From: a virus
Lineage: Duplodnaviria > Caudoviricetes
Strand: one strand, 5' to 3'
DNA: 64,000 bases
IMG/VR virus record: IMGVR_UViG_3300009370_000001
This document shows positions 3,936-17,308 of the stretch, piece by piece. The position numbers were made by a program, and so were the translations under genes. The notes below the pieces were generated by a model. That model saw only the letters and a program-made list of their open reading frames with translations. It had not been told where the DNA came from and did no database searches. Within the stretch, counting starts at the first letter, position 1. Every line of letters starts with the position of its first letter.

Positions 3936-3946
3936 CCTTTCAATTT

Positions 3947-4022: not shown

Positions 4023-4040
4023 TTTTTTTAAGAGAGAACA

Positions 4041-4217: not shown

Positions 4218-4268
4218 CATTTACTTGACAACTTTGGGGTGGACAAGTGGCTTGCCCTATGCTATATT
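4214..4268 (+). promoter_or_regulatory. triple-TTGACA promoter element
   Basis: boxes at 4214, 4225, 4240 (TGGACA); TATATT 4263. Confidence 0.85.
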
Positions 4269-4274
4269 GTATGT

Positions 4275-4364
4275 ATGATCAGCAAATGGCTATGGATTCC
4301 GATTCTTCTGGTATACGGTTTCATCTTTGGAGCCAGCTACCTTCTAACCTCGTGGATGGTCTAA
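4275..4364 (+). CDS. 29-aa single-TM peptide, probably leaderless
   Basis: MISKWLWIPILLVYGFIFGASYLLTSWMV; ATG 7 nt after the -10; TAATG coupling. Confidence 0.55.
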   Translation: MISKWLWIPILLVYGFIFGASYLLTSWMV

Positions 4365-4561
4365 TGAGCCCAGGCAACCTTGTAATGATTAAGCGTGCTG
4401 CTATCGGCGTGCCTGCTGGCACCCTCGCACTATGCTTGAAGCGCGACGAGAAGCGCGGAGATTATGACGAAGGCCATGAGATTTGGACAGTCCAGCTTAT
4501 GCATGGGCAGCTACGGGGCATTGAGCGCCGGTATCTTGATATTGATTTGGAGATATTGTGA
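4364..4561 (+). CDS. KOW/SH3-like microprotein
   Basis: MSPGNLV...LEIL; start corrected from the track. Confidence 0.55.
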   Translation: MSPGNLVMIKRAAIGVPAGTLALCLKRDEKRGDYDEGHEIWTVQLMHGQLRGIERRYLDIDLEIL

Positions 4562-4761
4562 AAGTCGGTGACTTGGTAAAGAGCGCAGATCGTTTAGTTG
4601 GCAATCGGAATCGCATGCGCCTGGGAGTGATCGTAGAGGTAGACCCCGATAAAGCCGATCAACCGGGTTGTTTCGGGAGTTGTTTTATCCAGTGGATAGG
4701 CGATGCAGATTGGACATTCGTGTACGAAGAAGATATTGAGGTAATCAATGAAGGTCGGTGA
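4558..4761 (+). CDS. KOW/SH3-like microprotein
   Basis: MKVGDLVK...LGVIVEV...IEVINEGR. Confidence 0.75.
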   Translation: MKVGDLVKSADRLVGNRNRMRLGVIVEVDPDKADQPGCFGSCFIQWIGDADWTFVYEEDIEVINEGR

Positions 4762-4936
4762 TTTAGTAAGAAACCTTAACTCGGAAAGCGGTCTGCTTGG
4801 CGTTATTGTTTACTGGACAGATACCAAATGGCCCGACAACAATCAATGTACGAACCATCCAGTCGTACACTGGAACGACGGGCGCACAAGTTGGATTATG
4901 GCGCATCGTGTGGAGATTATAAATGCAAATCGGTGA
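4748..4936 (+). CDS. KOW/SH3-like microprotein
   Basis: MKVGDLVR...VEIINANR; 14-nt overlap. Confidence 0.75.
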   Translation: MKVGDLVRNLNSESGLLGVIVYWTDTKWPDNNQCTNHPVVHWNDGRTSWIMAHRVEIINANR

Positions 4937-5147
4937 CATTGTAAGGGTACATTGGGGCGCATGCGACTGGTCCGGCACGGAAGGTGTTGACTGGGGATAT
5001 GGCGTTGGCGTTGTGACGGGCGATATTGTGTGGTGGGAGAACACACGGCGTCTTGTGTCTCCGTGCGGCGACGTAGAGATTCTATTTCGCGGCGAGCGCG
5101 TAAACTATAACCTTGGTCGGCTGGAGATTGTAAATGAAAGTCGGTGA
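4923..5147 (+). CDS. KOW/SH3-like microprotein
   Basis: MQIGDIVR...LEIVNESR; 14-nt overlap. Confidence 0.75.
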   Translation: MQIGDIVRVHWGACDWSGTEGVDWGYGVGVVTGDIVWWENTRRLVSPCGDVEILFRGERVNYNLGRLEIVNESR

Positions 5148-5316
5148 CTTGGTGAGATATAAAGATTCACTCCGCGATGACGTGGGAGTTGTAATGAAAA
5201 TACAAACCGAGGGATCGTGTTCAATCTTTGGTCACACAGTGATCGTACAGACAACCGATGGGATTTGCCGTCAATATACCGAAAAGAATCTGGAGATTTT
5301 AAATGCAAGTCGGTGA
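5134..5316 (+). CDS. KOW/SH3-like microprotein
   Basis: MKVGDLVR...LEILNASR; 14-nt overlap. Confidence 0.75.
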   Translation: MKVGDLVRYKDSLRDDVGVVMKIQTEGSCSIFGHTVIVQTTDGICRQYTEKNLEILNASR

Positions 5317-5491
5317 CTTGGTAAAGATTGTGCAGTCAGCAATAGATCCGCTCAAGACTCCATTTTTGGAACAGGTCGGTGTGATTGTTAGAAAGACTAC
5401 ACTTGAATCAGAACAAAACGATTGGTATGATGTATTAACGCGGGATAGGATTCACTCATTCCGCGCAGACTATTTGGAGAAGATAAAATGA
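5303..5491 (+). CDS. KOW/SH3-like microprotein
   Basis: MQVGDLVK...YLEKIK; 14-nt overlap. Confidence 0.75.
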   Translation: MQVGDLVKIVQSAIDPLKTPFLEQVGVIVRKTTLESEQNDWYDVLTRDRIHSFRADYLEKIK

Positions 5492-5751
5492 AAGCAGGAG
5501 ATTTAGTAACACTTTCGGCGTATGCGAATGGGCTTCAAGCCCTCCAGCGGTGGTCAGACCGCTTCCGCCAATACCATAAAAAGCAGCCCCTGGTGGGATT
5601 GGTGATTAAAATCTCCCCGTCTCGGTGGGCGTGGGAAGGGATGCAGTATGAAGTACGATGGATGGAGCCGCATGGGCCGAAAGGTCGGGAGGGTAACTAC
5701 GGCGTACACACATTCAACCGCAAAGATTTGAAGTTTGTGAGTCGAGGATAG
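5488..5751 (+). CDS. KOW/SH3-like microprotein
   Basis: MKAGDLVT...GLVIKI...LKFVS. Confidence 0.72.
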   Translation: MKAGDLVTLSAYANGLQALQRWSDRFRQYHKKQPLVGLVIKISPSRWAWEGMQYEVRWMEPHGPKGREGNYGVHTFNRKDLKFVSRG

Positions 5752-6128
5752 TGGAAAATCTCACTCCAGAAAATTTTTTCCTGGTATTCCAGGTATTTAT
5801 CAAAGTTTTAGTTATATGGAGTCCCGTATTGTTTGGGACGTGGCTTTATATGTATTACACGCGCCCTAAAAAGCGCACAACCCAACGCAACAAAGGAAAG
5901 AAGATAATGAGAGCAGGCGAAGTATTTGAATGGCTGGATCAGGGACCAGCGGTATTGTTGGCACCATGTAAGATTGCCGATCCTATTCCCGTAGAAAAGA
6001 AGACCGAGTTTCTAAAAGATCCCGAAGGATTCTTGAAGGCATGGCCCAGCGAACAAGGCTGGACTATTAAACTTCTGGAAAGCGGCGACATCATCGACGT
6101 GCATGAAGACACGTTGACATACTCTTGA
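5751..6128 (+). CDS. hypothetical protein with N-terminal TM helix
   Basis: hydrophobic N-terminus; possible internal start at MRAGEV. Confidence 0.55.
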   Translation: MENLTPENFFLVFQVFIKVLVIWSPVLFGTWLYMYYTRPKKRTTQRNKGKKIMRAGEVFEWLDQGPAVLLAPCKIADPIPVEKKTEFLKDPEGFLKAWPSEQGWTIKLLESGDIIDVHEDTLTYS

Positions 6129-6168
6129 CAAGATTAACCTTGACTTACCGTCGCTGGCATGGTATATT
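6114..6168 (+). promoter_or_regulatory. triple-TTGACA promoter element
   Basis: boxes at 6114, 6125, 6140; TATATT 6163. Confidence 0.85.
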
Positions 6169-6174
6169 ATTAGC

Positions 6175-6306
6175 ATGAAAACGAAGAAAGTACCCAAGGC
6201 TCGTAACTGGCTCGCTGTCCATGCGTGGAATCGCAAGGGTGGAGCTATCCCTAACAAGAAGAAAGTTATGAATAAGAAGGCATGCAGGAAGAAGGTGCGA
6301 GCATGA
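6175..6306 (+). CDS. 43-aa very basic peptide, probably leaderless
   Basis: MKTKKVPKARNWLAVHAWNRKGGAIPNKKK...; ATG 7 nt after the -10; ATGA overlap with next gene. Confidence 0.6.
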   Translation: MKTKKVPKARNWLAVHAWNRKGGAIPNKKKVMNKKACRKKVRA

Positions 6307-6503
6307 GCAAATATGATTATGTTCCGTTTTTTGAGCGCGGCGATCTGGTAGAGATCAGCTTTGGCTATGGAGCTAAGAGCCTGGGCCTTTTTATGCATTA
6401 TGAAGGATGGGCTGACGATCTTCGCGCTAAGGTTTTTTGGGATGGTCAAGACCTTTCCACTCCGGTCGTGCAACTTACACTAATCAAGAGAGCAGCAGAA
6501 TGA
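6303..6503 (+). CDS. KOW/SH3-like microprotein
   Basis: FERGDLVE...LGLF...LTLIK. Confidence 0.65.
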   Translation: MSKYDYVPFFERGDLVEISFGYGAKSLGLFMHYEGWADDLRAKVFWDGQDLSTPVVQLTLIKRAAE

Positions 6504-6799
6504 ATATCTGGGTATTTATGGGACGCTGCGAAGGGGATCTATTCGCCACCACACACCTAACGGAGAAAGGCGCAGTCCTGGCGGCACTGGCGGATATTCT
6601 GGAATATCTGGGAATCGACAGCGACGAAGATGCGCGATCTAACCCCGAAGATGCCGATGCCCTCTTGCCCTGGGATTACGACGAGCTTAAAACATTTCCC
6701 ACCACGCAGCTATGGGAAGTCTACGCAGGATATCGTGAACATTTGTGGGATGATTTTTCGTATGAGATTGACATTCATCAGACACAGGTGACAGGATGA
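6500..6799 (+). CDS. acidic hypothetical protein
   Basis: D/E-rich; ATGA overlap; start corrected from the track. Confidence 0.6.
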   Translation: MNIWVFMGRCEGDLFATTHLTEKGAVLAALADILEYLGIDSDEDARSNPEDADALLPWDYDELKTFPTTQLWEVYAGYREHLWDDFSYEIDIHQTQVTG

Positions 6800-7083
6800 A
6801 ACTGGTTAGAGATAACATTCCCAAGATCATTAATGACTCGGGACGCGAATGTAAATATCATAAAGCTGACGAAGCTGAACATATAGCACGCCTCAAGGAT
6901 AAAATGGAGGAGGAGCTAACAGAGTTTATGCTTGAGCCATCTTGTGAAGAAGCAGCCGACATGCTGGAAGTGGTGCGCGGTTTGTGTCACATTCACGGCA
7001 TTGATTTTATGGATGCGCTGGATGCAGCCAACAATAAACATGCTCGACGTGGTGGCTTCGATGGAGGGATCGTATTGTGGTAA
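6796..7083 (+). CDS. MazG-like/phosphoribosyl-ATP pyrophosphohydrolase family protein
   Basis: KLVRDNIP and EELTEF...EEAADMLE motifs. Confidence 0.85.
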   Translation: MKLVRDNIPKIINDSGRECKYHKADEAEHIARLKDKMEEELTEFMLEPSCEEAADMLEVVRGLCHIHGIDFMDALDAANNKHARRGGFDGGIVLW

Positions 7084-7298
7084 AAGATACACTGCTGCAA
7101 GTCGGTGACTTGATAAGACATAAAACTTTGGGACACACCGGGTTGATTCTTCAAAGCGATCCGCGTTCCCTATGCAGTGAAATGATCCCAAGCTATTTTT
7201 TGATTGTGTGGAGCGATTGGCCTCGACTGCCCCAAGCAGATAACCAGACGTGGGCACTTGCAGATGATATAGAGGTGATTAATGCTGCAAGTAGGTGA
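7077..7298 (+). CDS. KOW/SH3-like microprotein
   Basis: LQVGDLIR...IEVINAASR. Confidence 0.72.
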   Translation: MVKDTLLQVGDLIRHKTLGHTGLILQSDPRSLCSEMIPSYFLIVWSDWPRLPQADNQTWALADDIEVINAASR

Positions 7299-7530
7299 TA
7301 TCGTTAAGTTTTTTGACTATGACTATGCCGCATTTCACCGCGATACGTCTGGTGAATGTTGGCGCATCGGTGTTGTGTCGGAGATCCGTCACGAGGTGTG
7401 GGATGAAGATTGGGATCCCGCATGTCTTCCGCTTGTCGTTGTCGTTCACGACGGACACAGCCAACCCCTCGTGATGCCAAACGAAAAAAATATCGGAACC
7501 TGGGTGGAGCTTATAAGTGCCCGTAAGTGA
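7282..7530 (+). CDS. KOW/SH3-like microprotein
   Basis: LQVGDIVK...IGVVSEI...VELIS. Confidence 0.72.
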   Translation: MLQVGDIVKFFDYDYAAFHRDTSGECWRIGVVSEIRHEVWDEDWDPACLPLVVVVHDGHSQPLVMPNEKNIGTWVELISARK

Positions 7531-7605
7531 TCGAATGTGGGTTATTGTTTCATTGGCGTTGGCCGTGACGGTGTGGTATTATGTGCGCTTCGGGGGAGGG
7601 GCATT

Positions 7606-7815
7606 ATGAAGGTCGGTGATTTGGTGCGACAGCGCGACGTTGGCATGCCTCGGCAGAATCGGAGAGTGGGCGTGGTGCGCGAGATCCGAAAGAAGGATCA
7701 CGCACGCTGGAAGGGTGATGGCTGGGATTCAGTCAGAGTATATTGGGGCGACAACCAGCGCATGAACGAGCGGTGGACTGTGCGCGGGTCATTAGAAGTT
7801 ATTGATGGCGCTTGA
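7606..7815 (+). CDS. KOW/SH3-like microprotein
   Basis: GGAGG RBS; MKVGDLVR...LEVID. Confidence 0.75.
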   Translation: MKVGDLVRQRDVGMPRQNRRVGVVREIRKKDHARWKGDGWDSVRVYWGDNQRMNERWTVRGSLEVIDGA

Positions 7816-7866
7816 CATTCTCTTTACAACATTAACCTTGACTACACCCCATTTACATGCTATATT
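7812..7866 (+). promoter_or_regulatory. triple-TTGACA promoter element
   Basis: boxes at 7812, 7823 (TTTACA), 7838; TATATT 7861. Confidence 0.85.
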
Positions 7867-7890
7867 ATAGGGGCAATCAGGAGAAAATAG

Positions 7891-8124
7891 ATGGCAGTTT
7901 ATGAAGCAACCGTCACCCGTGTGCGCTATGTTCACACAGTTATCGAGGTAGAAGCCGATAGCCCCGAGGAGGCACGAGAACAGGCACAACAAGTTATTGA
8001 TGCTGGCGTCTTTGGTCAACCAAATGTGACGCACCCTTATCCAGAACCCGTTTATCAATGGACAACGCACAACCGCGAAGGTGTGCTGGGTCACGACGAA
8101 TATGAGATTGTCGACATCGCTTGA
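7891..8124 (+). CDS. hypothetical protein (DpnD/PcfM-like beta hairpin, tentative)
   Basis: AGGAG RBS; IEVEADSPEEA. Confidence 0.65.
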   Translation: MAVYEATVTRVRYVHTVIEVEADSPEEAREQAQQVIDAGVFGQPNVTHPYPEPVYQWTTHNREGVLGHDEYEIVDIA

Positions 8125-8175
8125 CATTTACTTTACAACTTAACGATTGACAAACCCCCTGAAAAATGGTATATT
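8121..8175 (+). promoter_or_regulatory. triple-TTGACA promoter element
   Basis: boxes at 8121, 8132, 8147; TATATT 8170. Confidence 0.85.
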
Positions 8176-8202
8176 ATAGGGGTAATCAAGGAGAACACTA
8201 AC

Positions 8203-8553
8203 ATGGCCTATCTTCACAAACAAGACATCGTAATCATTCGCCAGGGCGGCAAGACCATCCAGGCTCGCGTGGTAGACATGCGTTTCCGGCGCTTTAGACG
8301 CGCCTGGAAGGACCGCAAGACCGGCGAGAACAAGTCACGCTGGAAGTCGGTGCCCTACGCAGTGTGCGAGGTATTTGCGGGGCTTCCCGTGGGGACCGAG
8401 TTTATTATTGCAGGCTACAAGCTGAAGAACGAAACCAAAGACGGCGAAAAGCTGCTGGTGCTGCGCGACAAGTATGCAGCCGAGTTTAATGGCGCGTGGG
8501 TAAACACCCTATTGGCCGAGAGCAAGAATATCCGTGCAAAGAGGAGTGCATAA
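8203..8553 (+). CDS. basic hypothetical protein
   Basis: AAGGAG RBS. Confidence 0.65.
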   Translation: MAYLHKQDIVIIRQGGKTIQARVVDMRFRRFRRAWKDRKTGENKSRWKSVPYAVCEVFAGLPVGTEFIIAGYKLKNETKDGEKLLVLRDKYAAEFNGAWVNTLLAESKNIRAKRSA

Positions 8554-8922
8554 ATGGGTTATCGATCACAAGTAGTATTGGCTATCGGAGAAGCATTGAT
8601 TCCACAGTTTATGGTGACAATGGCTAAATGTCCCGAGGCGCGAGCTATGTGCTTTGGGGATGCCGATCAGACGCGAGATTTCCAGGGAGAAAAGGGCAGT
8701 CTCTTTTTTGAATGGGATCATATTAAATGGTATGCCGGTTATGAAGAGGTCCAAGCCATCGAGGATTTTCTAAACTGGGCTGAAGATAAGCTGAAGATCG
8801 ACGGCAAAGAGATTGATGGCGACGAGCATTTTCGTTTCGTTCGCATTGGCGAGGAATATGATGATATTGAAACCCGTGGGTGGGGGTTTGACATTCACCC
8901 TGTTAGAAGTATTGAGTATTAA
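8554..8922 (+). CDS. acidic phage hypothetical protein (MGYRS type)
   Basis: RBS and coupling; KWY...RIGEEYDDIE. Confidence 0.65.
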   Translation: MGYRSQVVLAIGEALIPQFMVTMAKCPEARAMCFGDADQTRDFQGEKGSLFFEWDHIKWYAGYEEVQAIEDFLNWAEDKLKIDGKEIDGDEHFRFVRIGEEYDDIETRGWGFDIHPVRSIEY

Positions 8923-9033
8923 GGAAGGATAACATGACAGGTATGGCAACATTCACATTTATTTGTATTGCGACGGGATTTAGCGCGTTTGCAGTTGCAG
9001 TAAAACGAGAGATTTGTATTAAAAGAGGAAAAA

Positions 9034-9282
9034 ATGAATACTAAAGTATGTAAACACTGCGATGAGATTTTTAATCTTGATTCGATTGCTAAAAAAGCAG
9101 CGGGTGGAAAGATTAACGAGTGCCCCGACTGCGTTGAGGAGTTGGGCACCGAGACTGCTGTAAAATATACAGGGCTTCAGATTGAAGAAACAGGATCGTT
9201 TGCGATCAGTCGGCATGCTACAGAAGCAGACCGGCAGAAACACATGAACGACCGGCTGAAAATGGATGACTTGTCAAAATGA
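9034..9282 (+). CDS. zinc-ribbon protein
   Basis: CKHC and CPDC pairs. Confidence 0.65.
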   Translation: MNTKVCKHCDEIFNLDSIAKKAAGGKINECPDCVEELGTETAVKYTGLQIEETGSFAISRHATEADRQKHMNDRLKMDDLSK

Positions 9283-9530
9283 AAATGACACTTGTTATTG
9301 ATAGTGAAGATTTGGATGGTATTAAAGATTCATTTAAGATCATCAAGATGATGAACGATAAATATAACACGCCAGCGCGTCAGTATAATGATCGTTCATT
9401 CGGAAAGATTCGCTACATTAAACTTCTGCGTAAATACGCGAAGTTTGCGGCTGATGAAGATTTTGACGTTGATTCGCTCAAAGCCGCTAAACGCTTTGCC
9501 GATGCGTTGTGGGCAGGCGATTTTGATTGA
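9279..9530 (+). CDS. hypothetical protein
   Basis: ATGA overlap; stop in the TTGACA box. Confidence 0.6.
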   Translation: MKMTLVIDSEDLDGIKDSFKIIKMMNDKYNTPARQYNDRSFGKIRYIKLLRKYAKFAADEDFDVDSLKAAKRFADALWAGDFD

Positions 9531-9581
9531 CATTTACTTGACATGATAATGATTGACAGCAACGCCTTTTCATGCTATATT
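9527..9581 (+). promoter_or_regulatory. triple-TTGACA promoter element (three perfect boxes)
   Basis: TTGACA at 9527, 9538, 9553; TATATT 9576. Confidence 0.88.
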
Positions 9582-9608
9582 ATAGGGGCAAATAAGGAGA
9601 GAACCACA

Positions 9609-9935
9609 ATGAGATTTGAGTTTACAGAAGAAGAAGTCGGCGCTTTGATCGAGGCACTCGGCGCGTGGATGGAGCAACCGAGCGAATGGGAAGGCGAGGA
9701 GTGGTTGCGACGGCAGGACATCGGCGCAGACCTTGACCTTGAGTTGCGCGAGGGGCTGGCCACTGGTGATGGAAACGTCGTCGATGATGCAGCCGAGGCT
9801 TTTATTCAGGCAGGCATCGACGCCCGCGAACAAGCTAAGGCAACATCCCGGGCCGCAACGCGCCGTGAACAAAGGCTGGCCGAACTGGCGAAAGGCACCA
9901 CGGCTACCCTCGCCAACGACCCCGCAGACTGGTAG
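9609..9935 (+). CDS. acidic helical hypothetical protein
   Basis: AAGGAG RBS; start corrected from the track. Confidence 0.65.
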   Translation: MRFEFTEEEVGALIEALGAWMEQPSEWEGEEWLRRQDIGADLDLELREGLATGDGNVVDDAAEAFIQAGIDAREQAKATSRAATRREQRLAELAKGTTATLANDPADW

Positions 9936-9941
9936 CATAAA

Positions 9942-10151
9942 ATGAAAGTCGGTGATTTGGTTAAATGGTCCTGGCACCTTGATACAGATTGGGCGACGAC
10001 GCATTTTATGGGCGTCATCGTGGGCTCCAAGCTATACAAGATGGCGAATGGGCTGGATAAATGTATCGTGCTGCAAGTATTGACCAGGAATGGCCAAACC
10101 ATCCAGGTCCGAGAAGACGAAGCAACCTTAAAGTTGATCGCCGCGTCTTGA
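9942..10151 (+). CDS. KOW/SH3-like microprotein
   Basis: MKVGDLVK...MGVIVG...LKLIA. Confidence 0.72.
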   Translation: MKVGDLVKWSWHLDTDWATTHFMGVIVGSKLYKMANGLDKCIVLQVLTRNGQTIQVREDEATLKLIAAS

Positions 10152-10202
10152 CATTCTCTTGACAACTTTCCTATTGACTCTCACCTATCCAGGTGGTATA
10201 AT
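10148..10202 (+). promoter_or_regulatory. triple-TTGACA promoter element
   Basis: boxes at 10148, 10159, 10174; TATAAT 10197. Confidence 0.88.
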
Positions 10203-10231
10203 GATGGCATATCAAGTAAGGAGATATATCA

Positions 10232-10453
10232 ATGGCTACTAACCTTCCCTATGTAATGACCTTTGCACAAGCGTGCGACTACTTCACCGACGAGATTCTG
10301 CCCTTGGTTCAAGAGCAGCATGAGCAAGACGGTGTACCCGATTGGCCCGCCCGATGCGAAACCTGGAACAACTGGACCGATAGCCTATGCAAAGACGGAC
10401 AGATCAGCGACTGGCAGTATATGAACTGGACACACCCGCCCTGCAACGGTTGA
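10232..10453 (+). CDS. acidic Trp-rich phage hypothetical protein
   Basis: AAGGAG RBS; WNNWTDSLCKDGQI. Confidence 0.65.
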   Translation: MATNLPYVMTFAQACDYFTDEILPLVQEQHEQDGVPDWPARCETWNNWTDSLCKDGQISDWQYMNWTHPPCNG

Positions 10454-10504
10454 CATTCACTTTACAACATTAACCTTGACATCCACACCCCAGCATGCTA
10501 TATT
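10450..10504 (+). promoter_or_regulatory. triple-TTGACA promoter element
   Basis: boxes at 10450, 10461, 10476; TATATT 10499. Confidence 0.88.
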
Positions 10505-10529
10505 GTATGCATAGAACGGAGAAAACTAT

Positions 10530-11318: not shown

Positions 11319-11373
11319 TTGACATTCCCTTTACAACTTGGGGGTAGACAGCCCCCAGGTTCTATGGTATAAT
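11319..11373 (+). promoter_or_regulatory. triple-TTGACA promoter element with inverted repeat around the -35
   Basis: boxes at 11319, 11330, 11345 (TAGACA); TATAAT 11368; G-run/C-run flank the -35. Confidence 0.85.
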
Positions 11374-11375
11374 GC

Positions 11376-11561
11376 TTGCATACGATGGAGAAAGCGATGA
11401 GCCCCTGGATGACCGAGAGACTAAACACCTTGAAAACAGAGAACCAGCCCGAGCGTCCCGCGCTCCGCATCCCGACACCGCGCCCGGCACCGGCACGTCG
11501 CCCCGAGCGTCGGCCCGAACCCACTCGCGGCGTTATTATCGTTGACTTGACAATCAGTTGA
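11376..11561 (+). CDS. small Pro/Arg-rich protein
   Basis: ERPALRIPTPRP...RGVIIVDL; start uncertain. Confidence 0.5.
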   Translation: MHTMEKAMSPWMTERLNTLKTENQPERPALRIPTPRPAPARRPERRPEPTRGVIIVDLTIS

Positions 11562-11601
11562 CAACTTCCTTGTTGACAGACCTATTTACCCATGCTATAT
11601 T
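11547..11601 (+). promoter_or_regulatory. triple-TTGACA promoter element
   Basis: TTGACA at 11547, 11558, 11573 (plus TTGACT 11542); TATATT 11596. Confidence 0.88.
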
Positions 11602-11642
11602 ATTAGCGTAAGAAACAAAGAACCCCGAACCCGGAACCAATC

Positions 11643-12731
11643 ATGTCAGTAGACTTCAAGACCTTTCAAACCGTAGTAGCTCATATCCTCGATTACAAGT
11701 TTCCCGTGCTGGTGCGCGGTAGGCATGGCGTCGGCAAATCCGAGGTAGTGTATCAGATTGCTGCTGATCGCAACCTTCCGATTGTCGAGCGTCGTGCAAG
11801 CCAGATGACAGAGGGTGACTTGCTTGGTCTTCCCGATACCTGTGACACCGCTATCAGTGGGCGCAAGGCTACCACGTGGAACGCTCCAGATTGGCTTGTG
11901 ACGGCTTGTGAGCAACCCGTGGTACTCTTCCTCGATGAAGTGGACCGGGCAACGATGGAAGTCCGTCAGGGACTCTTTGAGTTGACCGACAGTCGCAAGA
12001 TCAACGGCTGGAAGCTGCACCCCGAAACCCTCATTGTCGCCGCTGTCAACGGTGGCGAGCATGGCGCACAATATCAGGTAGGAGAAATGGACCCTGCCGA
12101 GTTGGATCGCTGGACCGTGTTCGATGTCGAGCCTTCCGTAGAAGACTGGCTCACCTGGGGCAAGGACAATGTTAATGAAGTGCTGTGGGACTTCGTGAAC
12201 CACAACCGTCAACACCTTGAGCATCAGGGCGAGCATGAGCCGAACAAAGTTTATCCTTCTCGCCGTAGCTGGAAGCGGTTTAATGATACCGCTGTTCCCA
12301 CTGGCGCGTTTACCGAGGATGGACAGAACGGCGAGTTGCTGTATCAGCTTGCAACCGCCTTTGTCGGCTTTGAAGCCGCTGTAGCACTTAAGGACTTCGT
12401 TGAGAAGTATGAGTGGCAAGTGACGGTAGAGGATCTGCTTGACAACGGACAGATCGAGCGCACCGAGAAGTGGGGCATCAATGACCATGCTGCGATGATC
12501 GAGAAGCTGGACGCCTCCGGTGTCCTGGCTGAAACGCTCAACGAGACACAGGTTAGTAACCTTGCCACCTATTTCGTCTCGCTGCCCTCGGAAGTGGCCA
12601 TGAAGTTGTGGACCGTCCTGGGAGACACCGACAACATTGAAAATGTCGTAGCACTCCACAAGGCAGAATCGGCCTCTGGACAGAAGGTTAGTGAACACCT
12701 TGTGGAAATCCTGGGAGGCTCCCAGGAGTGA
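11643..12731 (+). CDS. MoxR-like AAA+ ATPase
   Basis: Walker A GRHGVGKS, Walker B LFLDEVDR, DPAELDRW. Confidence 0.9.
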   Translation: MSVDFKTFQTVVAHILDYKFPVLVRGRHGVGKSEVVYQIAADRNLPIVERRASQMTEGDLLGLPDTCDTAISGRKATTWNAPDWLVTACEQPVVLFLDEVDRATMEVRQGLFELTDSRKINGWKLHPETLIVAAVNGGEHGAQYQVGEMDPAELDRWTVFDVEPSVEDWLTWGKDNVNEVLWDFVNHNRQHLEHQGEHEPNKVYPSRRSWKRFNDTAVPTGAFTEDGQNGELLYQLATAFVGFEAAVALKDFVEKYEWQVTVEDLLDNGQIERTEKWGINDHAAMIEKLDASGVLAETLNETQVSNLATYFVSLPSEVAMKLWTVLGDTDNIENVVALHKAESASGQKVSEHLVEILGGSQE

Positions 12732-12937
12732 GGATCTTGAAGGCTGGCGACCTACTAATCAGGGAGCGCGATAAGCGCCCCTGTATCGTCTTGGAGGTCC
12801 AAGAGAGTACGAAACCCCAGTGGGGCACCCTGGACGCCAGCAGACGGCGATACAGGCTCTTTGAGAGCCATTCTGGAGTGTCCCGCTGGGTAGTCGATAC
12901 CGAGGTTGCCGTCAAATACACCCTAACAACCGATTGA
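12728..12937 (+). CDS. KOW/SH3-like microprotein
   Basis: LKAGDLL...CIVLEV; inserted between the AAA and VWA genes. Confidence 0.6.
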   Translation: MRILKAGDLLIRERDKRPCIVLEVQESTKPQWGTLDASRRRYRLFESHSGVSRWVVDTEVAVKYTLTTD

Positions 12938-12988
12938 CATTCACTTGACAACTTTTCCCTGGACAAACCTACGTACCCATGCTATATT
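12934..12988 (+). promoter_or_regulatory. triple-TTGACA promoter element
   Basis: boxes at 12934, 12945, 12960; TATATT 12983. Confidence 0.85.
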
Positions 12989-13013
12989 GTATGTGTAGAA
13001 AGGAAAGAACCCT

Positions 13014-14270
13014 ATGAGCGACGACAAACCCACTCCCTTTGACTTGAACAAGCACACGGCGCGGCTGCTTATGCGCGAGCCGTTTTTCGCTGGGCTGTCT
13101 CGGCGGATCGACAAGACCCCGACGACTGAGATCCCGACTGCCGGTGTTCGCATTAATCCCGAACGGGCACAGTTTGAGTTGATGTATAACCCTGACTTCA
13201 TGGCGAGCCTTAGCGACAAGCACCGACTTGCGATCTTGAAGCATGAGTTTTACCATATCATCTTTGAGCATGTGACACACCGCAAGCCTGCCGATGGCAT
13301 TAGCCGCCTGGACAACATTGCGATGGATCTGGCAATCAACGGCTTGCCCGACATGAAGACTAACCTTCCCAACGATGCCGAGCCAGGACCACCGACCGGA
13401 TCGGCTGGTGAGCCCATGAAGGCATGCATCCCCGGAGAAGGGCCATTCGCTCACTTGCCTTGTGAGAAGTCCTATGAGTGGTACAAGGCAGCACTCCAAG
13501 ACATGCAGAAAGAGAAGCCAGAAGGCGAGCCAGGGGAGCCAGGACAAGGCGAGCCCGGTGATGGCGATCCCTTCGGCGGCATGGATGCGCTGGACGATCA
13601 CGGCGAGTTTGGCGAGGGTCAAGGCACCGCAGACGAGATCGCTAAGGAACGTCTGAAGGAAGCGGTAAAGCAGGCAGCAGAGGAAGCCGAGAAGGCTAAT
13701 AACTGGGGCACTGTTTCAGGAAACACCCGGCGCGACATTATGGATCGCATCGCTACTAAGGTTGACTGGCGCAAGGTGTTGCGTTATTTCGTGAAGACCA
13801 CGCAACGCTCCGACAAGACCAGCACGCCGAGGAAACTGAACCGCAGATTTCCACGCATCCACGCAGGAAAGCGCGTCCGTCGTCACGCTCGCATTGCTAT
13901 CAGCATCGACCAGTCTGGATCGGTGGATGATAAAATGCTTCAAGCGTTCTTCTCCGAGTTGAACAAGTTGGCCGAGATTGCCGAGTTTACTGTTATCCCA
14001 TTCGATTCAGTAGTGGGCGAGGATAAGATTTATGTATGGAAGAAGGGTGCAACCCGCAGAACCGAGCGCGTTATGTGCGGCGGGACTTGCTTTAATGCTC
14101 CAACCAAGTACGTGAACGAACACGGATTCGATGGACATATTATCCTTACTGACCTGATGGCACCTAAGCCGATGGCGAGCAAGTGTCAACGCATGTGGAT
14201 GACGACTAAGGCATACGCGGCGCGTCCCTACTTCCAGACTAACGAGCGAGTCATCGCAATCGACAGTTGA
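13014..14270 (+). CDS. DUF2201-type metallopeptidase plus VWA-like domain protein
   Basis: HEFYH (HExxH), NIAMDLAIN, MIDAS-like IDQSGS, GGT, TD. Confidence 0.88.
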   Translation: MSDDKPTPFDLNKHTARLLMREPFFAGLSRRIDKTPTTEIPTAGVRINPERAQFELMYNPDFMASLSDKHRLAILKHEFYHIIFEHVTHRKPADGISRLDNIAMDLAINGLPDMKTNLPNDAEPGPPTGSAGEPMKACIPGEGPFAHLPCEKSYEWYKAALQDMQKEKPEGEPGEPGQGEPGDGDPFGGMDALDDHGEFGEGQGTADEIAKERLKEAVKQAAEEAEKANNWGTVSGNTRRDIMDRIATKVDWRKVLRYFVKTTQRSDKTSTPRKLNRRFPRIHAGKRVRRHARIAISIDQSGSVDDKMLQAFFSELNKLAEIAEFTVIPFDSVVGEDKIYVWKKGATRRTERVMCGGTCFNAPTKYVNEHGFDGHIILTDLMAPKPMASKCQRMWMTTKAYAARPYFQTNERVIAIDS

Positions 14271-14320
14271 CAAGCACTTGACATTTCGGGGTAGACAACC
14301 TGCCCCGAATATGTTATATT
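14267..14320 (+). promoter_or_regulatory. triple-TTGACA promoter element with hairpin
   Basis: boxes at 14267, 14278, 14292; TATATT 14315; TTCGGGG...CCCCGAA inverted repeat around the -35. Confidence 0.85.
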
Positions 14321-14348
14321 GCTATATACAAACAGGAGATCCCTACTT

Positions 14349-15158
14349 ATGGCTCGCACAACCTACGCCGACCGCTTGAAAGCCCTTATCACCAACCCCG
14401 CTATGTCTGCGCGTGACTGCCAGTTTGCAAGCAGCTTGCTTGCCTACTACGTCAAGCGCAAGTCGCTGACCAGTGGCCGCGCTCGCTGTGTGCGCGAGCT
14501 TGAGGCACGGTACAGCGCCGAGGCAGTAGCCGAGCGTGCAGCCCGCACCGCACCGCTAACGGCTCGATTGCAGGCGCTCACTGCCCGTGTGACCGAGGGT
14601 TCATGGGCTGGCGGGTTCGTGGAGTCTTTGACCGAGCAAGTGGCGTCAGGACGCAACCTAAGCCCACGCCAGATCGAGATCCTGGAGAAGATCGAGAGCG
14701 AGCATAGCGACGAGGCTATTAATGCTGCCGCTTCCTGGGATGCCGACTTCTCCGATGACATGCGCGACCGGCTGACCGTTGCGGCACGTTATTATCGTCG
14801 CACTGGCTACTTTACTAACCTTGTGGATCGTGCGTTGACCCCTGATGGCCAACCGACCGCATTTATTCCGACTGAAAAGCAGTATCGGAAGGTCACCGAA
14901 AACAAGTATGCACAGAAGGTATTGACCGCGCACTATGACGCGCCAAAGTACGCCACTGGCTCGATGGTGCAACTGCGCCCGAGTTGCGGCTATCTCGCAC
15001 GTTCCAAAGCAGGCGACAAGCCCTGTGTCGTTATCTCGACCACGGAGCCCATCGTGAGCGCGTGCAAGGGTGCAAAGATGTATCGGATCTTGCCCATCGG
15101 ATCCGCAACTATGATCACAATCGAGGAGCGTCACATTAAGAAGGCGCGAGGAGTATAA
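14349..15158 (+). CDS. hypothetical protein with C-terminal KOW-like segment
   Basis: AGGAG RBS; start corrected from the track; YATGSMV. Confidence 0.7.
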   Translation: MARTTYADRLKALITNPAMSARDCQFASSLLAYYVKRKSLTSGRARCVRELEARYSAEAVAERAARTAPLTARLQALTARVTEGSWAGGFVESLTEQVASGRNLSPRQIEILEKIESEHSDEAINAAASWDADFSDDMRDRLTVAARYYRRTGYFTNLVDRALTPDGQPTAFIPTEKQYRKVTENKYAQKVLTAHYDAPKYATGSMVQLRPSCGYLARSKAGDKPCVVISTTEPIVSACKGAKMYRILPIGSATMITIEERHIKKARGV

Positions 15159-15160
15159 AC

Positions 15161-15466
15161 ATGAAGAGAATCCTAACCAACAGTAAAGTGATCGAGGCAT
15201 GGCAGCGCGGAGAACGCGCCGCTAACCATCGTGGCACACTTCAATGTTACAGTGATGGCACGCTGTATAGCTACAACCTGCATATCGGCCAGCGCACACC
15301 GTCAGGAGTGTGCATTGTGGGCGATTACACGGCTCCTGGCGGGGGGTTCAAGTCAGTGACTACCTCGTGCCATGTCGGACGCGCCAAGCGCGTTCCTGGG
15401 GTCACTGTGATGCACCCGCTTGTGTGGGTCGATTCTCCGTTGAGTAACGAGGAAATCCCATTCTAA
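15161..15466 (+). CDS. phage hypothetical protein
   Basis: GAGGAG RBS. Confidence 0.65.
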   Translation: MKRILTNSKVIEAWQRGERAANHRGTLQCYSDGTLYSYNLHIGQRTPSGVCIVGDYTAPGGGFKSVTTSCHVGRAKRVPGVTVMHPLVWVDSPLSNEEIPF

Positions 15467-15479
15467 CCCGAGACAGATT

Positions 15480-15725
15480 ATGGAAGACAACAATATCATT
15501 AACCTTGTCGAAATCCTTGAGGAGAAGGAAAGACAGAAAGAGAGAGAAGAAGAAATGGAAAAGGCCGAGCTACGCGATCAACTGCAATGGGTGTTGCAGA
15601 AACTCCATGAGAAGAACATCACCTATCGAGCAGAAGACGAAGAAGAAATAGGGTTTGATGCTTATGAGCGAGTTCCTAAACGTAACTGGTTCCAGCGTTT
15701 TCTGGACCGCTTTCGATACGATTGA
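15480..15725 (+). CDS. charged hypothetical protein
   Basis: ORF track; stop in the TTGACA box. Confidence 0.6.
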   Translation: MEDNNIINLVEILEEKERQKEREEEMEKAELRDQLQWVLQKLHEKNITYRAEDEEEIGFDAYERVPKRNWFQRFLDRFRYD

Positions 15726-15776
15726 CACACACTTGACAACCTAAACCTTGACAGTCACCCCGAAAAGTGCTATATT
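15722..15776 (+). promoter_or_regulatory. triple-TTGACA promoter element (three perfect boxes)
   Basis: TTGACA at 15722, 15733, 15748; TATATT 15771. Confidence 0.88.
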
Positions 15777-15799
15777 GTATGCATACAACGGAGAGAACT

Positions 15800-15991
15800 A
15801 TGACCACTTTGCCCCTTGAATCCGCCGCATATGCCTGTGAGGGCGTTATTACCGCTGTCGCAGTCCTGTCGCAAGTGCTGGAAGTCCAGCGCGTTGCGCC
15901 TGAAGACCCGCAGACCCCTGACGCAGTTAATCTGCTGTTGGAAGCCTATGCACTCGCATGCGTTGGTAGCGGCTGCGTAGCGGAGGCTTAG
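15800..15991 (+). CDS. hypothetical protein
   Basis: GGAG RBS; start corrected from the track. Confidence 0.55.
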   Translation: MTTLPLESAAYACEGVITAVAVLSQVLEVQRVAPEDPQTPDAVNLLLEAYALACVGSGCVAEA

Positions 15992-15992
15992 A

Positions 15993-16238
15993 ATGACTAT
16001 TAAAGTTGTACGCGAGAACCGCAACCCCCGAGATCATCAGATCCGAGTGGGTGATCTGATTCGGATCGTTAATCACGATCCAACAATGTCGATCCCCCTG
16101 GCGGCTGTCCCGCACACTCTCGGCCTTGTCACAGAAATGGGAGAACCGGCGACGTGCCCCGACTACGTGATCGCTGTCTTCCCGCACCTGGGCGAGACAG
16201 TCGTATACGAAGACGAATGGGAAGTGATTAGTGTTTGA
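15993..16238 (+). CDS. KOW/SH3-like microprotein
   Basis: IRVGDLIR...LGLVTE...WEVIS. Confidence 0.7.
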   Translation: MTIKVVRENRNPRDHQIRVGDLIRIVNHDPTMSIPLAAVPHTLGLVTEMGEPATCPDYVIAVFPHLGETVVYEDEWEVISV

Positions 16239-16470
16239 CGTGGGAACCATTGTATCAGTTATTTCGACCGACCAGCCACTTAAAGGGATCGTCGTGCCGA
16301 ATGGTTTTGATCCACCCGTGCATATCAACGCGGATCTTAAGACTCCGCCCTATCCGTGGGATGATCTTCCCGGTGTATCAATGGTGCTGATTACAAGTAG
16401 CGGAGAGTATCAAGGAAAAGTGTATCCCTTTCAGAAGCATCAACTGGAGATTATAAGTGACTCAAGTTAA
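16231..16470 (+). CDS. KOW/SH3-like microprotein
   Basis: FDVGTIV...KGIVV...LEIIS. Confidence 0.65.
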   Translation: MFDVGTIVSVISTDQPLKGIVVPNGFDPPVHINADLKTPPYPWDDLPGVSMVLITSSGEYQGKVYPFQKHQLEIISDSS

Positions 16471-16768
16471 AGTCAGTATCCCGCCCGCGCTGTTCACAGC
16501 CCCGAGCGGTCAACGCTATGCGGTTGCAGGCTCACAGTGGATTCGTGTGCCCCTGGACACGACTCACGCGACCCTTGACCAGTTTGTGAGCTACTCGCCG
16601 CCAGAAGTCCAGCAGGACGACAATAATGGATCGTGGCAAGTGCAAGGCTCCAAGGGCAACACTTATACTGTGCGCGTTCGCGCCGGTCAGTGGTTCTGCT
16701 CCTGTCCTGGCTATGGCTTTCGGCGCAAGTGCCGACACATCGAGGAGACAAGAAATGCAAATCGGTGA
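16457..16768 (+). CDS. SWIM zinc-finger protein
   Basis: YTV...WFCSCPGYGFRRKCRHI. Confidence 0.85.
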   Translation: MTQVKVSIPPALFTAPSGQRYAVAGSQWIRVPLDTTHATLDQFVSYSPPEVQQDDNNGSWQVQGSKGNTYTVRVRAGQWFCSCPGYGFRRKCRHIEETRNANR

Positions 16769-16964
16769 TTTGATTCGTTTTGTTAATACGGGTTGTCATG
16801 GCGTGGTTCTGTCCGTCCGTCCGTCCCGCCACCACATCGATCCCGACTGGATTTATGTCTTGTGCGGTCCTGATGCTGATGGCCACCGGGCAACAGGCGA
16901 ACCTACGGCTTTTCCCAGGGACTACCTCGCAAGAGTGTCGGAGGTTATAAATGCAAGTCGGTGA
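16755..16964 (+). CDS. KOW/SH3-like microprotein
   Basis: MQIGDLIR...SEVINASR; 14-nt overlap. Confidence 0.72.
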   Translation: MQIGDLIRFVNTGCHGVVLSVRPSRHHIDPDWIYVLCGPDADGHRATGEPTAFPRDYLARVSEVINASR

Positions 16965-17139
16965 TCTCGTAGTGTTTAGGGATGACCGGGTGCCTGGAGT
17001 GATTGTAGCAGAAAGGCGCGACGATCCGCTCCCCAAGAAACTCCGTGTGGGTGTATTGTGGATCGATTGTAATGATGTGTCGTGGGAGCCAATCCAATAC
17101 TTGCGAGTGATAAGCGAGACAGATAATGAAAATCGGTGA
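16951..17139 (+). CDS. KOW/SH3-like microprotein
   Basis: MQVGDLVV...LRVIS; 14-nt overlap. Confidence 0.75.
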   Translation: MQVGDLVVFRDDRVPGVIVAERRDDPLPKKLRVGVLWIDCNDVSWEPIQYLRVISETDNENR

Positions 17140-17308
17140 TCTAATAACATTTCAGATTGACTATGATTCAGAGTGTATTGAAGATATAGGGATTGTCACA
17201 GAAATAGAACCGACTCTTGGTTATGCCATAATCGCATGGCCGTGGGGACAGGGGCGACACCGCACATGCGGGTTGCATATATTAAGCGAGAACGGAGAAC
17301 AAGAATGA
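17126..17308 (+). CDS. KOW/SH3-like microprotein
   Basis: MKIGDLIT...IGIVTEI; 14-nt overlap. Confidence 0.72.
   Translation: MKIGDLITFQIDYDSECIEDIGIVTEIEPTLGYAIIAWPWGQGRHRTCGLHILSENGEQE

What the first reader, a model, noticed from the sequence alone, without database searches (positions are those of the whole stretch)
4364..17308. Expanded library of ~30 KOW/SH3-like microproteins with a self-coupling gene junction
Seen: about 30 ORFs of 60-115 aa begin M(K/Q)(V/I)GD(L/I)V, have a central G-hydrophobic strand and end (L/I)E(V/I)I, while the loops are highly variable. Seven junctions overlap by exactly 14 nt (4748, 4923, 5134, 5303, 16755, 16951, 17126) with consensus (G)GAG-N6-7-AATG(A/C)A(A/G)(G/A)TCGGTGA. 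The upstream gene's final Glu codon supplies the RBS, and the downstream ATG...GGTGA supplies the upstream stop. The SWIM gene also carries this junction. Inference: any duplicated unit is automatically translated and terminated, so this is an accordion-like, recombination-friendly array of diversified small beta-barrels. They may act as binders of RNAP, ribosome or defence proteins (KOW, Tudor and the CarD RID domain share this start pattern).
Basis: partly seen in the sequence, partly recalled or inferred. Interest (0 to 1): 0.82.

Follow-up and report, generated by a model that had tools for sequence, protein, structure and literature searches.

The report
Shuffled SH3-like mini-gene cassettes in phage
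An uncultured marine T4-like phage carries about two dozen tiny early genes for variants of one small barrel-shaped protein, many chained by a 14-base overlap that holds the ribosome site, the start and the stop; related phages swap whole genes at that overlap, and what the proteins do is unknown.

Summary
A profile of the family finds 19 members in 4364-17308 and 27 in the whole window, not about 30.

- **Fold:** two AlphaFold2 models (pLDDT 92 and 80) give a five-stranded SH3-like barrel. No member matches any Pfam or PHROG family at a significant level.
- **Junction:** in 80 related IMG/VR loci the 14-nt overlap is the commonest junction (275 of about 620 family genes). Its synonymous sites are biased beyond what the protein requires. 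Glu is GAG 95:4 against 49% in the background, the motif Gly is GGT 71% against 41%, and Val and Ile codons extend the match to the 16S tail.
- **Turnover:** this is cassette shuffling, not a recent accordion. Three close relatives show unit A, unit B or no unit at one junction. The same unit has up to 9 different neighbours. Neighbours in the window are no more alike than non-neighbours (p=0.49).
- **Selection:** dN/dS within unit types is about 0.23.

The arrays sit in early sigma-70-type operons. Binding to host or defence proteins is inferred, not tested.

The scan found the same system before on other DNA (e1-5335539, e1-5390451, e1-5319810, e1-5411281).

The parts
4240..4268 (+). sigma-70-type promoter-like site at the head of the first array operon
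   Evidence: TGGACA-17-TATATT with an upstream TG. It is one of about 17 near-consensus + strand sites in 1-16000.
4364..4561 (+). family unit (start uncertain; the ORF runs 4247-4561); 4-nt GTGA overlap with the next unit
   Evidence: HMM E=4.5e-9; sequence.
4558..4761 (+). family unit, 67 aa
   Evidence: HMM E=2.9e-13. It ends ..EVINEGR, with its stop in the GGTGA of the next unit.
4748..4936 (+). family unit, 62 aa; 14-nt junction at its start and at its end
   Evidence: AlphaFold2 pLDDT 92, five-strand SH3-like barrel. This single unit alone is shared at DNA level with L017, L037, L041 and L082 (4747-4944).
4923..5147 (+). family unit, 74 aa; 14-nt junctions on both sides
5134..5316 (+). 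family unit, 60 aa; 14-nt junctions on both sides
5303..5491 (+). family unit, 62 aa; 14-nt junction upstream, 4-nt ATGA overlap downstream
   Evidence: This single unit alone is shared with L034 (5302-5509).
5488..5751 (+). family unit, 87 aa, with a roughly 25-aa insert in the first loop
   Evidence: AlphaFold2 pLDDT 80: the same barrel plus short helices in the beta1-beta2 loop.
5907..6128 (+). divergent family unit (MRAGEV..), C-terminal part of ORF 5751-6128
   Evidence: HMM E=3.5e-4.
6282..6503 (+). divergent family unit with an N-terminal extension
   Evidence: HMM E=1.8e-8. A promoter-like site lies at 6140-6168.
7077..7298 (+). family unit; its stop lies in the GGTGA of the next unit (17-nt overlap)
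7282..7530 (+). family unit, 82 aa (ML-QVGDIV)
   Evidence: HMM E=1.1e-12.
7606..7815 (+). family unit, 69 aa, basic (pI 10.8)
9942..10151 (+). isolated family unit
   Evidence: HMM E=6.6e-9. Its homologue in L034 sits in a different context (9945-10142).
12728..12937 (+). anchored family unit between the MoxR-type AAA ATPase (11643-12731) and the DUF2201/VWA gene (13014-14270)
   Evidence: It is 94-95% identical in L001 and L002 and holds this place in more distant relatives too (L003, L007, L008). Its 50% cluster never directly abuts another family unit (cluster 5).
15748..15776 (+). promoter-like site at the head of the second array operon
   Evidence: TTGACA-17-TATATT with TG, 11 of 12 matches.
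15993..16238 (+). family unit with an N-terminal extension
   Evidence: HMM E=3.4e-10.
16231..16470 (+). family unit, 79 aa (MFDVGTIV)
   Evidence: HMM E=1.8e-10.
16457..16768 (+). SWIM zinc-finger gene embedded in the array; it ends in a 14-nt junction
   Evidence: Pfam SWIM E=9.3e-5, 22.3 bits against a cut-off of 19.6. The gene alone is shared with L017 at 86% (16445-16772).
16755..16964 (+). family unit that is polymorphic among close relatives
   Evidence: It is present here, replaced by an unrelated 52-aa unit in L001 and absent in L002. The breakpoints lie inside the repeated ATGCAAGTCGGTGAT. This single unit alone is shared with L047.
16951..17139 (+). family unit, 62 aa
   Evidence: 77-79% identical in L001 and L002.
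17126..17308 (+). family unit, 60 aa, last of the second array
   Evidence: 61-64% identical in L001 and L002.

Best explanation
The region is part of the early, hyperplastic region of an uncultured marine T4-like phage of about 200 kb.

**The units.** It carries a repertoire of cassette genes of about 190 nt. Each encodes a stand-alone five-stranded SH3-like beta-barrel of about 63 aa. The core strands are conserved. The loops, above all beta1-beta2, differ freely in length and sequence.

**The junction.** Units are chained head to tail by a dual-coding junction with clade consensus TGGAGGTGATCA-ATG-AAAGTCGGTGAT.
- The codons for the last strand of the upstream protein (Leu-Glu-Val-Ile) spell a strong, often extended Shine-Dalgarno site 6-7 nt before the next ATG.
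- The Gly-Asp codons GGTGA of the next gene spell the upstream stop, which gives the 14-nt overlap.
- An ATGA at the start gives a stop in the other frame, so any out-of-frame upstream gene is terminated within 14 nt.

**Inferred expression.** This gives serial, coupled translation of every unit on polycistronic early transcripts made by host RNA polymerase.

**Shown by comparison.** The conserved 15-30 nt junction also serves as the crossover point at which whole units are gained, lost or replaced between related phages. The clade therefore shares a large pool of unit types (369 clusters at 50% identity among 625 units), and each type is kept under purifying selection.

**Inferred function, about 35% confidence for this step.** The units are small binding modules with different targets, made early for host takeover or counter-defence.
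For: **Phage and context**
- All genes lie on one strand. The window holds 4 tRNAs and a tmRNA.
- Relatives include a complete 195-kb contig with terminal repeats, a T4-type capsid and a T4-type portal. Its 23 family copies all lie within 90-123 kb.
- Near-consensus TTGACA-17-TATATT sites head the operons: 47 found against 23.5 expected.

**Fold**
- AlphaFold2 gives pLDDT 92 and 80, both five-strand barrels.
- Foldseek finds PetP, Tudor, PWWP, KOW and the Mfd/CdnL RID in the PDB, DUF4314, Hva1-TUDOR and DUF1918 in AFDB, and T-even Gp30.5 and DUF2158 in BFVD.

**Junction**
- 275 of about 620 family genes in 81 loci have the 14-nt overlap. In 187 the upstream gene is a family member and in 88 it is not.
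- The position weights over 266 junctions give the consensus. An SD-like motif is present in 82%, with 6-7 nt spacing, against 40-52% in the other junction classes.

**Selection at synonymous sites, one representative per 50% cluster**
- Glu is GAG:GAA 95:4 at junctions, against 82:26 elsewhere in the family (Fisher p=4e-5) and 49% GAG in the background.
- The motif Gly is GGT in 71%, against 41% in the background (p=1e-31).
- Val is GTG in 47% against 23%. Ile is ATC in 73% against 39%.
- An exact match of 8 nt or more to the complement of the 16S tail occurs in 18% of junctions, against 0.7-2% elsewhere.

**Exchange**
- Three states exist at one junction in the window, L001 and L002.
- The same unit type has up to 6 upstream and 9 downstream neighbour types.
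- DNA homology to other loci is confined to single units: 4747-4944, 5302-5509, 9945-10142 and 16755-16971.

**Real genes with varied chemistry**
- dN/dS within unit types has a median of 0.23, junction codons excluded.
- pI runs from 4.4 to 10.2, with a third acidic and a third basic.
Against: - Nothing shows translation, coupling or any binding partner. No listed sequencing run is on record as RNA.
- Termination-reinitiation is documented mainly for 4-nt and 1-nt overlaps, and longer overlaps are rare (PMC10666635). Coupling at 14 nt is therefore an extrapolation.
- The strong Shine-Dalgarno site could work by independent initiation alone.
- Non-family genes in this region are shuffled as single genes too (8203-8553, 8554-8922 and the SWIM gene). 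Exchange is thus a property of the whole hyperplastic region, not of this junction only.
- Some units are fixed in place (12728-12937) and may have a housekeeping role rather than a variable one.
- dS between members of a cluster is near saturation (about 1), so the dN/dS values are rough.
Confidence: 0.6

Rival explanations
1. The junction is only a by-product. Units descend from one duplicated ancestor, and the conserved N-terminal and C-terminal amino acids happen to fix the DNA. On this reading the junction has no role of its own in translation or recombination.
For: - The motifs MKVGDLV and LEVI are structural strands of the barrel.
- They are also kept in isolated units that have no family neighbour (9942, 20958, 46688).
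Against: - Synonymous positions are strongly biased in just the direction that makes the Shine-Dalgarno site and the stop (GAG 95:4, GGT 71%, GTG and ATC enriched), even with one representative per 50% cluster.
- The bias is stronger where a 14-nt junction follows than elsewhere in the family (Fisher p=4e-5).
- Isolated units outside the arrays use GGA, GGG or GGC for the motif Gly.
- 88 non-family genes also end in the junction.
Confidence: 0.1
2. The array is a gene accordion in the poxvirus sense: recent local amplification of one gene under selection, followed by divergence in place.
For: - The genes are tandem and head to tail, with repeated junctions that would favour unequal crossover.
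- One same-type tandem pair exists in L017 (3201/3373).
- A natural in-frame two-unit fusion exists in metagenomes (P0006).
Against: - Window paralogs are at most about 38% identical, and the best paralog is often far away.
- Adjacent pairs are no more alike than random pairs (10.8 against 10.8 bits, p=0.49).
- Unit types are shared between phages in different contexts. This points to exchange of old cassettes.
Confidence: 0.08
3. The coupled units are subunits of one hetero-oligomeric assembly, for example a ring or stack of barrels. On this reading the overlap exists to fix their stoichiometry.
For: [quoted passage not shown]
- SH3-like and Sm-like barrels often oligomerise (general knowledge).
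Against: - Close relatives differ in which units they carry, and in how many, at the same place.
- Neighbours of a given unit vary widely. This fits poorly with fixed partners.
Confidence: 0.07
4. The units are nucleic-acid-binding KOW/Sm-like proteins, such as RNA chaperones or modulators of translation or transcription. On this reading they share one common mode of action and do not bind diverse protein targets.
For: - The profile gives weak matches to the KOW part of uL24, NusG, bL19 and eL21 (E 0.018-1.3).
- Foldseek matches KOW, Spt5 and ribosomal proteins.
Against: - None of these matches is significant, and no Pfam KOW hit appears.
- pI ranges from 4.4 to 10.2, and a third of the units are acidic. 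This argues against a shared nucleic-acid-binding surface.
Confidence: 0.12

Closest known systems
PeSL (promoter-early stem-loop) motifs that mediate modular shuffling in hyperplastic regions of T4-type phages (Arbiol et al. 2010, PMC2839356; Comeau et al. 2014, PMC4122927)
   Same: - The phage is T4-like.
- Small early genes of unknown function sit in variable regions.
- Insertions, deletions and replacements between close relatives are bounded by a short conserved sequence, which also has a role in expression.
   Different: - Here the conserved sequence is not an intergenic promoter/terminator. It is a dual-coding stretch inside two overlapping genes, holding the ribosome site, the start and the stop.
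- The shuffled genes all belong to one protein family.
- Promoter repeats also occur in this region, but between operons, not between units.
Translational coupling by termination-reinitiation at overlapping stop/start codons (Huber et al. 2019, PMC6728339; PMC10666635)
   Same: - The genes are co-directional and overlapping.
- A Shine-Dalgarno site lies inside the upstream gene.
[quoted passage not shown]
   Different: - The dominant overlap here is 14 nt. The usual overlaps are 4 or 1 nt, and longer overlaps are reported as rare.
- The same junction is reused hundreds of times within one gene family.
- Coupling was not measured here.
Stand-alone SH3-like small proteins of phages and bacteria: T-even Gp30.5, DUF2158 (YodC-like), B. 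subtilis prophage YorP (PDB 2heq), cyanobacterial PetP (PDB 2n5u)
   Same: - The size is similar (55-85 aa).
- The fold is a five-stranded SH3-like barrel (Foldseek TM 0.70-0.74).
- Gp30.5 and DUF2158 occur in T4-like phages.
   Different: - No significant sequence relationship exists (no Pfam hit).
- I know of no report that those proteins form large tandem families or carry a common junction.
Expanded SH3-like small-protein family in a lytic Acinetobacter phage
   Same: About two dozen neighbouring small SH3-like paralogs in one phage, with a set that differs between sister phages.
   Different: - The motifs are different (VGD...NPNW), and that family is related to the Mind bomb SH3 repeat.
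- No dual-coding junction was reported.
- I did not test this finding here.

Membership tests
SH3-like beta-barrel fold (small five-stranded barrel) | Five antiparallel strands forming a partly open barrel, with a variable loop between strands 1 and 2 | tested here: met
   - Two AlphaFold2 models give strands at 6-9, 17-27, 34-42, 47-49 and 55-59 (pLDDT 92), and the same order with a loop insert (pLDDT 80).
- Every top Foldseek match is an SH3-like, Tudor or KOW domain.
KOW motif (Pfam PF00467) of NusG/Spt5/uL24 | Significant sequence match to the KOW profile | tested here: not met
   - No Pfam hit at E<=1 for 34 members.
- The family profile against PDB sequences gives uL24 E=0.018 and NusG E=0.26, both over the first two strands only.
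CarD/TRCF RNA-polymerase-interacting domain (Pfam PF02559) | Sequence match to the RID profile | tested here: not met
   - No Pfam hit.
- Foldseek matches to Mfd and CdnL have E 0.06-0.09, no better than PWWP or Tudor.
CarD/TRCF RNA-polymerase-interacting domain (Pfam PF02559) | Binding to the beta subunit of RNA polymerase | not testable with these tools
PeSL-mediated modular shuffling (T4-type phages) | Indels and replacements between close relatives are bounded by a short conserved motif | tested here: met
   Window, L001 and L002 show three states with breakpoints in the repeated ATGCAAGTCGGTGAT. Homology to other loci is confined to single units.
PeSL-mediated modular shuffling (T4-type phages) | The motif is an intergenic early promoter plus a stem-loop terminator | tested here: not met
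   Unit boundaries inside the arrays are overlapping coding sequence with no intergenic space. Promoter-like sites lie only between operons.
Translational coupling by termination-reinitiation | Co-directional genes whose stop and start overlap or nearly touch, with a ribosome site inside the upstream gene | tested here: met
   The overlaps are 14 nt (275), 4 nt (101) and 1 nt (40). An SD-like motif is present at 82% of the 14-nt junctions.
Translational coupling by termination-reinitiation | Downstream translation depends on upstream translation | not testable with these tools
   This needs reporter assays.
Gene accordion (recent tandem amplification) | Near-identical tandem copies, with neighbours as each other's closest paralogs | tested here: not met
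   - The best paralog identity is at most about 38% over the full length.
- The neighbour test gives p=0.49.
- One same-type tandem pair occurs in 75 distinct loci.

The most novel reading that the evidence does not exclude
The junction is a coding-embedded cassette site: one sequence of about 30 nt acts as ribosome site, start and double stop, and also as the crossover point. Through it a whole clade of marine T4-like phages shares and reshuffles a population-wide library of hundreds of SH3-like binder modules. Each module is tuned to a different host hub or defence protein. This would be an integron-like cassette system without an integrase, and a natural counterpart of engineered small-barrel binder scaffolds.
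Probability: 0.3. Interest if true: 0.8.

Novelty: new variant of a known kind. Interest (0 to 1): 0.62.

Why it matters
**Unnamed family.** The family has no Pfam or PHROG entry. Every database copy found is unnamed or called a hypothetical protein. Yet it takes up about two dozen genes per genome in a widespread group of uncultured marine T4-like phages.

**What it shows about variable gene sets.** A phage can keep a large, exchangeable set of small early proteins at almost no cost in intergenic DNA. The signals for translation, termination and recombination are all written into the conserved ends of the protein itself.

**If the units are binders.** They would be a rich source of new anti-defence or host-takeover proteins, and a natural small scaffold with free loops.

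**Annotation.** The junction also explains why gene callers miss or mis-start these genes.

Tried and rejected
- **Cultured phages.** Megablast of 4300-17400, and tblastn of one unit, against the INPHARED phages found no match. The DUF2201 gene finds only distant cultured phages.
- **Family libraries.** Pfam and PHROG scans of the units found nothing significant.
- **Own genome.** No whole genome is held for this window.
- **Complex prediction.** A job on two adjacent units (4748 and 4923) returned no verdict.
- **Sequencing runs.** The stretch is held by marine and seawater metagenomes, and no RNA holder is listed.
- **Laying contigs of four partial holders.** Many 'joints' between junction positions appeared (for example 4579 to 5133, 4771 to 5287, 5153 to 9941). 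Their short sides are only 18-36 nt, and the runs are mixed communities. They may simply be other phages' junctions, so I do not count them.
- **Bacterial genomes.** With a single unit it found two MAG contigs, which are probably mis-binned phage DNA and give no host.
- **Literature.** A search for the motif found nothing. A general search for SH3-like tandem phage families found nothing relevant.
- **Broader profile.** A profile built from 369 cluster representatives added only one member (18973-19257) and none inside the reported interval.

Full report
**What the window is**

Nearly all credible genes lie on the + strand. The window holds four tRNAs and a full-length tmRNA. It has no close relative among 50,697 deposited phage genomes.

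The DUF2201/VWA gene at 13014-14270 finds 190 related stretches in IMG/VR, some on contigs of about 185-203 kb. One complete relative has 195,459 bp and direct terminal repeats. It carries a T4-type major capsid gene and a T4-type portal gene. Its capsid protein is 34-47% identical to those of Microcystis phage Mel-JY01, Rhodothermus phage RM378 and some Flavobacterium phages.

The DNA is held by marine and seawater metagenomes. The window is therefore part of an uncultured marine T4-like phage of about 200 kb.

**Check of the observation**

The ORF list and a motif scan show the family as described. It has an N-terminal M(K/Q)(V/I)GD(L/I)V, a G-h-V strand, a Trp-containing strand, a D/G turn and a C-terminal (L/I)E(V/I)I.

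A profile built from 24 members finds 26 ORFs in the window, all on the + strand. Nineteen of them lie inside 4364-17308. A broader profile adds only 18973-19257. 'About 30' is therefore too high for the stated interval.

There is also a 17-nt variant at 7282. The 4-nt overlaps (GTGA, ATGA) lie at 4558 and 5488.

The tail N-(E/A)-(S/G)-R-stop of the upstream protein is simply the out-of-frame reading of the next gene's A-ATG-(A/C)AA-GTC-GGT-GA. The SWIM gene (16457-16768) ends the same way.

**Fold**

AlphaFold2 on the unit 4748-4933 gives pLDDT 92 and five strands. The 87-aa unit 5488-5748 gives the same barrel, with short helices inserted in the first loop (pLDDT 80).

Foldseek returns only SH3-like domains:
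- In the PDB: PetP, PHF19/PHF1 Tudor, PWWP, Spt5/NusG KOW, the Mfd and CdnL polymerase-interacting domains, and YorP.
- In AFDB: DUF4314, Hva1-TUDOR, KOW and DUF1918.
- In BFVD: T-even Gp30.5, DUF2158 and many unnamed proteins of uncultured viruses.

None of these matches singles out one family. No member reaches any Pfam or PHROG model. The family profile matches the KOW part of uL24 only at E=0.018. The protein is an SH3-like barrel, but it is not a demonstrable member of KOW, Tudor or the CarD RID.

In the large protein collections the relatives are unnamed or 'hypothetical' proteins from marine metagenomes. Many end in EVINESR or EVISESR, which is the mark of the same junction.

**The junction is a clade-wide, selected feature**

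In the window plus 80 related loci I found 670 family ORFs, all on the coding strand.

Of about 620 with a resolved start, 275 are preceded by an ORF that stops in their GGTGA, the 14-nt overlap. In 187 of these the upstream ORF is a family member. In 88 it is not. The next most common classes are 4 nt (101) and 1 nt (40).

The position weights over 266 junctions give TGGAGGT(G/A)AT(C/A)A-ATG-(A/C)AAGTCGGTGAT. An SD-like motif is present in 82% of them, at 6-7 nt from the ATG. In the other junction classes the figure is 40-52%.

The key test is at synonymous sites, taking one representative per 50%-identity cluster:

| Site | At 14-nt junctions | Comparison |
|---|---|---|
| Glu codon of the C-terminal strand | GAG:GAA 95:4 | 82:26 elsewhere in the family (Fisher p=4e-5); 49% GAG in long ORFs |
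| Motif Gly codon (all family genes) | GGT 71% | 41% for Gly-Asp pairs in long ORFs (p=1e-31) |
| Following Val codon | GTG 47% | 23% |
| Following Ile codon | ATC 73% | 39% |
| Exact match of 8 nt or more to the complement of the 16S 3' tail | 18% | 0.7-2% elsewhere |

The Val and Ile preferences extend the complementarity to GGAGGTGATC, the complement of the 16S rRNA 3' tail. That tail sequence is my own knowledge.

Amino-acid constraint alone does not explain this. The DNA itself is selected to be a ribosome site and a stop.

The start of a unit holds stops in both other frames (ATGA and GGTGA). An in-frame join gives a two-domain protein, of which one natural example exists (P0006).

That translation is actually coupled is an inference. 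Published work finds 4-nt and 1-nt overlaps by far the most common and longer ones rare. It also finds that the last 15 nt of the upstream gene suffice for coupling (PMC10666635).

**Evolution: cassette exchange, not a recent accordion**

Within the window the paralogs are old. The best full-length identities are about 28-38%. Adjacent units are no more alike than random pairs (p=0.49).

Across loci, 625 units fall into 369 clusters at 50% identity, 260 of them singletons. There is only one same-type tandem pair.

The same unit type occurs with up to six different upstream and nine different downstream neighbours (cluster 2, which includes 4748).

DNA homology between the window and other loci is often confined to exactly one unit plus the first bases of the next:
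- 4747-4944 in four loci
- 5302-5509 in L034
- 9945-10142 in L034
- 16755-16971 in L047
- the SWIM gene alone (16445-16772) in L017

The clearest case involves the two closest relatives, whose DUF2201 protein is 91-93% identical to the window's. After the SWIM gene the three phages differ:
- The window has unit 16755-16964.
- L001 has an unrelated 52-aa unit there.
- L002 has no unit there.

All three alignments break inside the repeated ATGCAAGTCGGTGAT.

Exchange is not unique to this junction, however. Non-family genes of the region are also shared singly, as expected for a T4-type hyperplastic region.

**The units are real, individually maintained genes**

Within unit types, and with the dual-coding ends left out, dN/dS is 0.04-0.51, with a median of 0.23. 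These values are rough, because dS is near 1.

Some units are fixed in place. The one between the MoxR-type ATPase and the DUF2201/VWA gene (12728-12937) is 94-95% identical in the close relatives, and it keeps this position in more distant ones too.

**Context and likely function**

Seventeen near-consensus TTGACA-17-TATATT sites, most with an upstream TG, lie on the + strand in 1-16000. They head the array operons at 4240, 6140 and 15748. In a T4-like phage this marks early genes read by the host polymerase.

In the complete relative, all 23 copies lie in one 33-kb region.

The units span pI 4.4-10.2, and a third are acidic. That argues against one shared nucleic-acid-binding role.

The following features fit a repertoire of small binding modules used for host takeover or counter-defence:
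- early expression
- small size
- a conserved core with free loops
- presence or absence differing between close relatives
- purifying selection on each type

That last step is inference only.

**Comparison with what is known**

The nearest described mechanism is PeSL-mediated modular shuffling in T4-type phages (PMC2839356, PMC4122927). The difference is that the conserved exchange point here is a dual-coding stretch inside overlapping genes of one family, not an intergenic promoter/terminator.

The nearest described expression device is overlap coupling by termination-reinitiation (PMC6728339, PMC10666635). Here the overlap is an unusual 14 nt, reused hundreds of times.

I rate it a new variant of known kinds.

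The same system was noted on other DNA earlier in this scan. One follow-up there (e1-5335539) reached the same reading. My analysis was done on this window and its own relatives.

Noticed in passing
window 41159-41580 (+): A full-length tmRNA gene in a phage genome: Rfam RF00023, 112.5 bits, with ARAGORN tag peptide ANNNNNFESVRLAA. It could help to find the host.
   Followed up: partly
window 698-15776 (+): About 17 near-consensus TTGACA-17-TATATT promoter-like sites, most with an extended -10 TG, lie at the heads of short operons. The scan found 47 sites against 23.5 expected by shuffling. They are probably the early promoters of this T4-like phage.
   Followed up: partly
window 11643-14270 (+): A MoxR-type AAA ATPase (PF07728) and a DUF2201 metallopeptidase/VWA-like protein have one positionally conserved SH3-like unit (12728-12937) between them, overlapping the ATPase gene by 4 nt. 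It may be a dedicated partner of this pair.
   Followed up: no
window 10001-16000: G+C is 0.53-0.55 here, against 0.36-0.49 in the rest of the window. Identity to L001 and L002 also changes at the array junction near 16772-16941: 87% to the left and 73% to the right.
   Followed up: partly
L017 3201-3560: This is the only case in 75 distinct loci of two adjacent units from the same 50% cluster, which suggests a recent tandem duplication.
   Followed up: no
protein P0006 (127 aa, metagenome): Two family units are fused in frame into one protein (...LEVVKQVKVGDLV...). It is a natural example of what an in-frame junction gives.
   Followed up: no
L082 (MAG Methylococcaceae TMED69, contig 305,838 bp) and L083 (MAG Halobacteriovorax, contig 101,404 bp): Contigs filed under bacterial MAGs encode close relatives of unit 4748 (63% and 39% identity). 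They are probably phage contigs binned with bacteria. The 305-kb length is larger than the roughly 195-kb relatives.
   Followed up: no
window 51080-57441 (+): A PIN-PhoH fusion gene (51080-52417) is followed, after two unexamined ORFs (52716-54218), by two glycosyltransferase genes (54227-55498 and 55498-57441). One of them matches the 'GT4-conflict' family.
   Followed up: no
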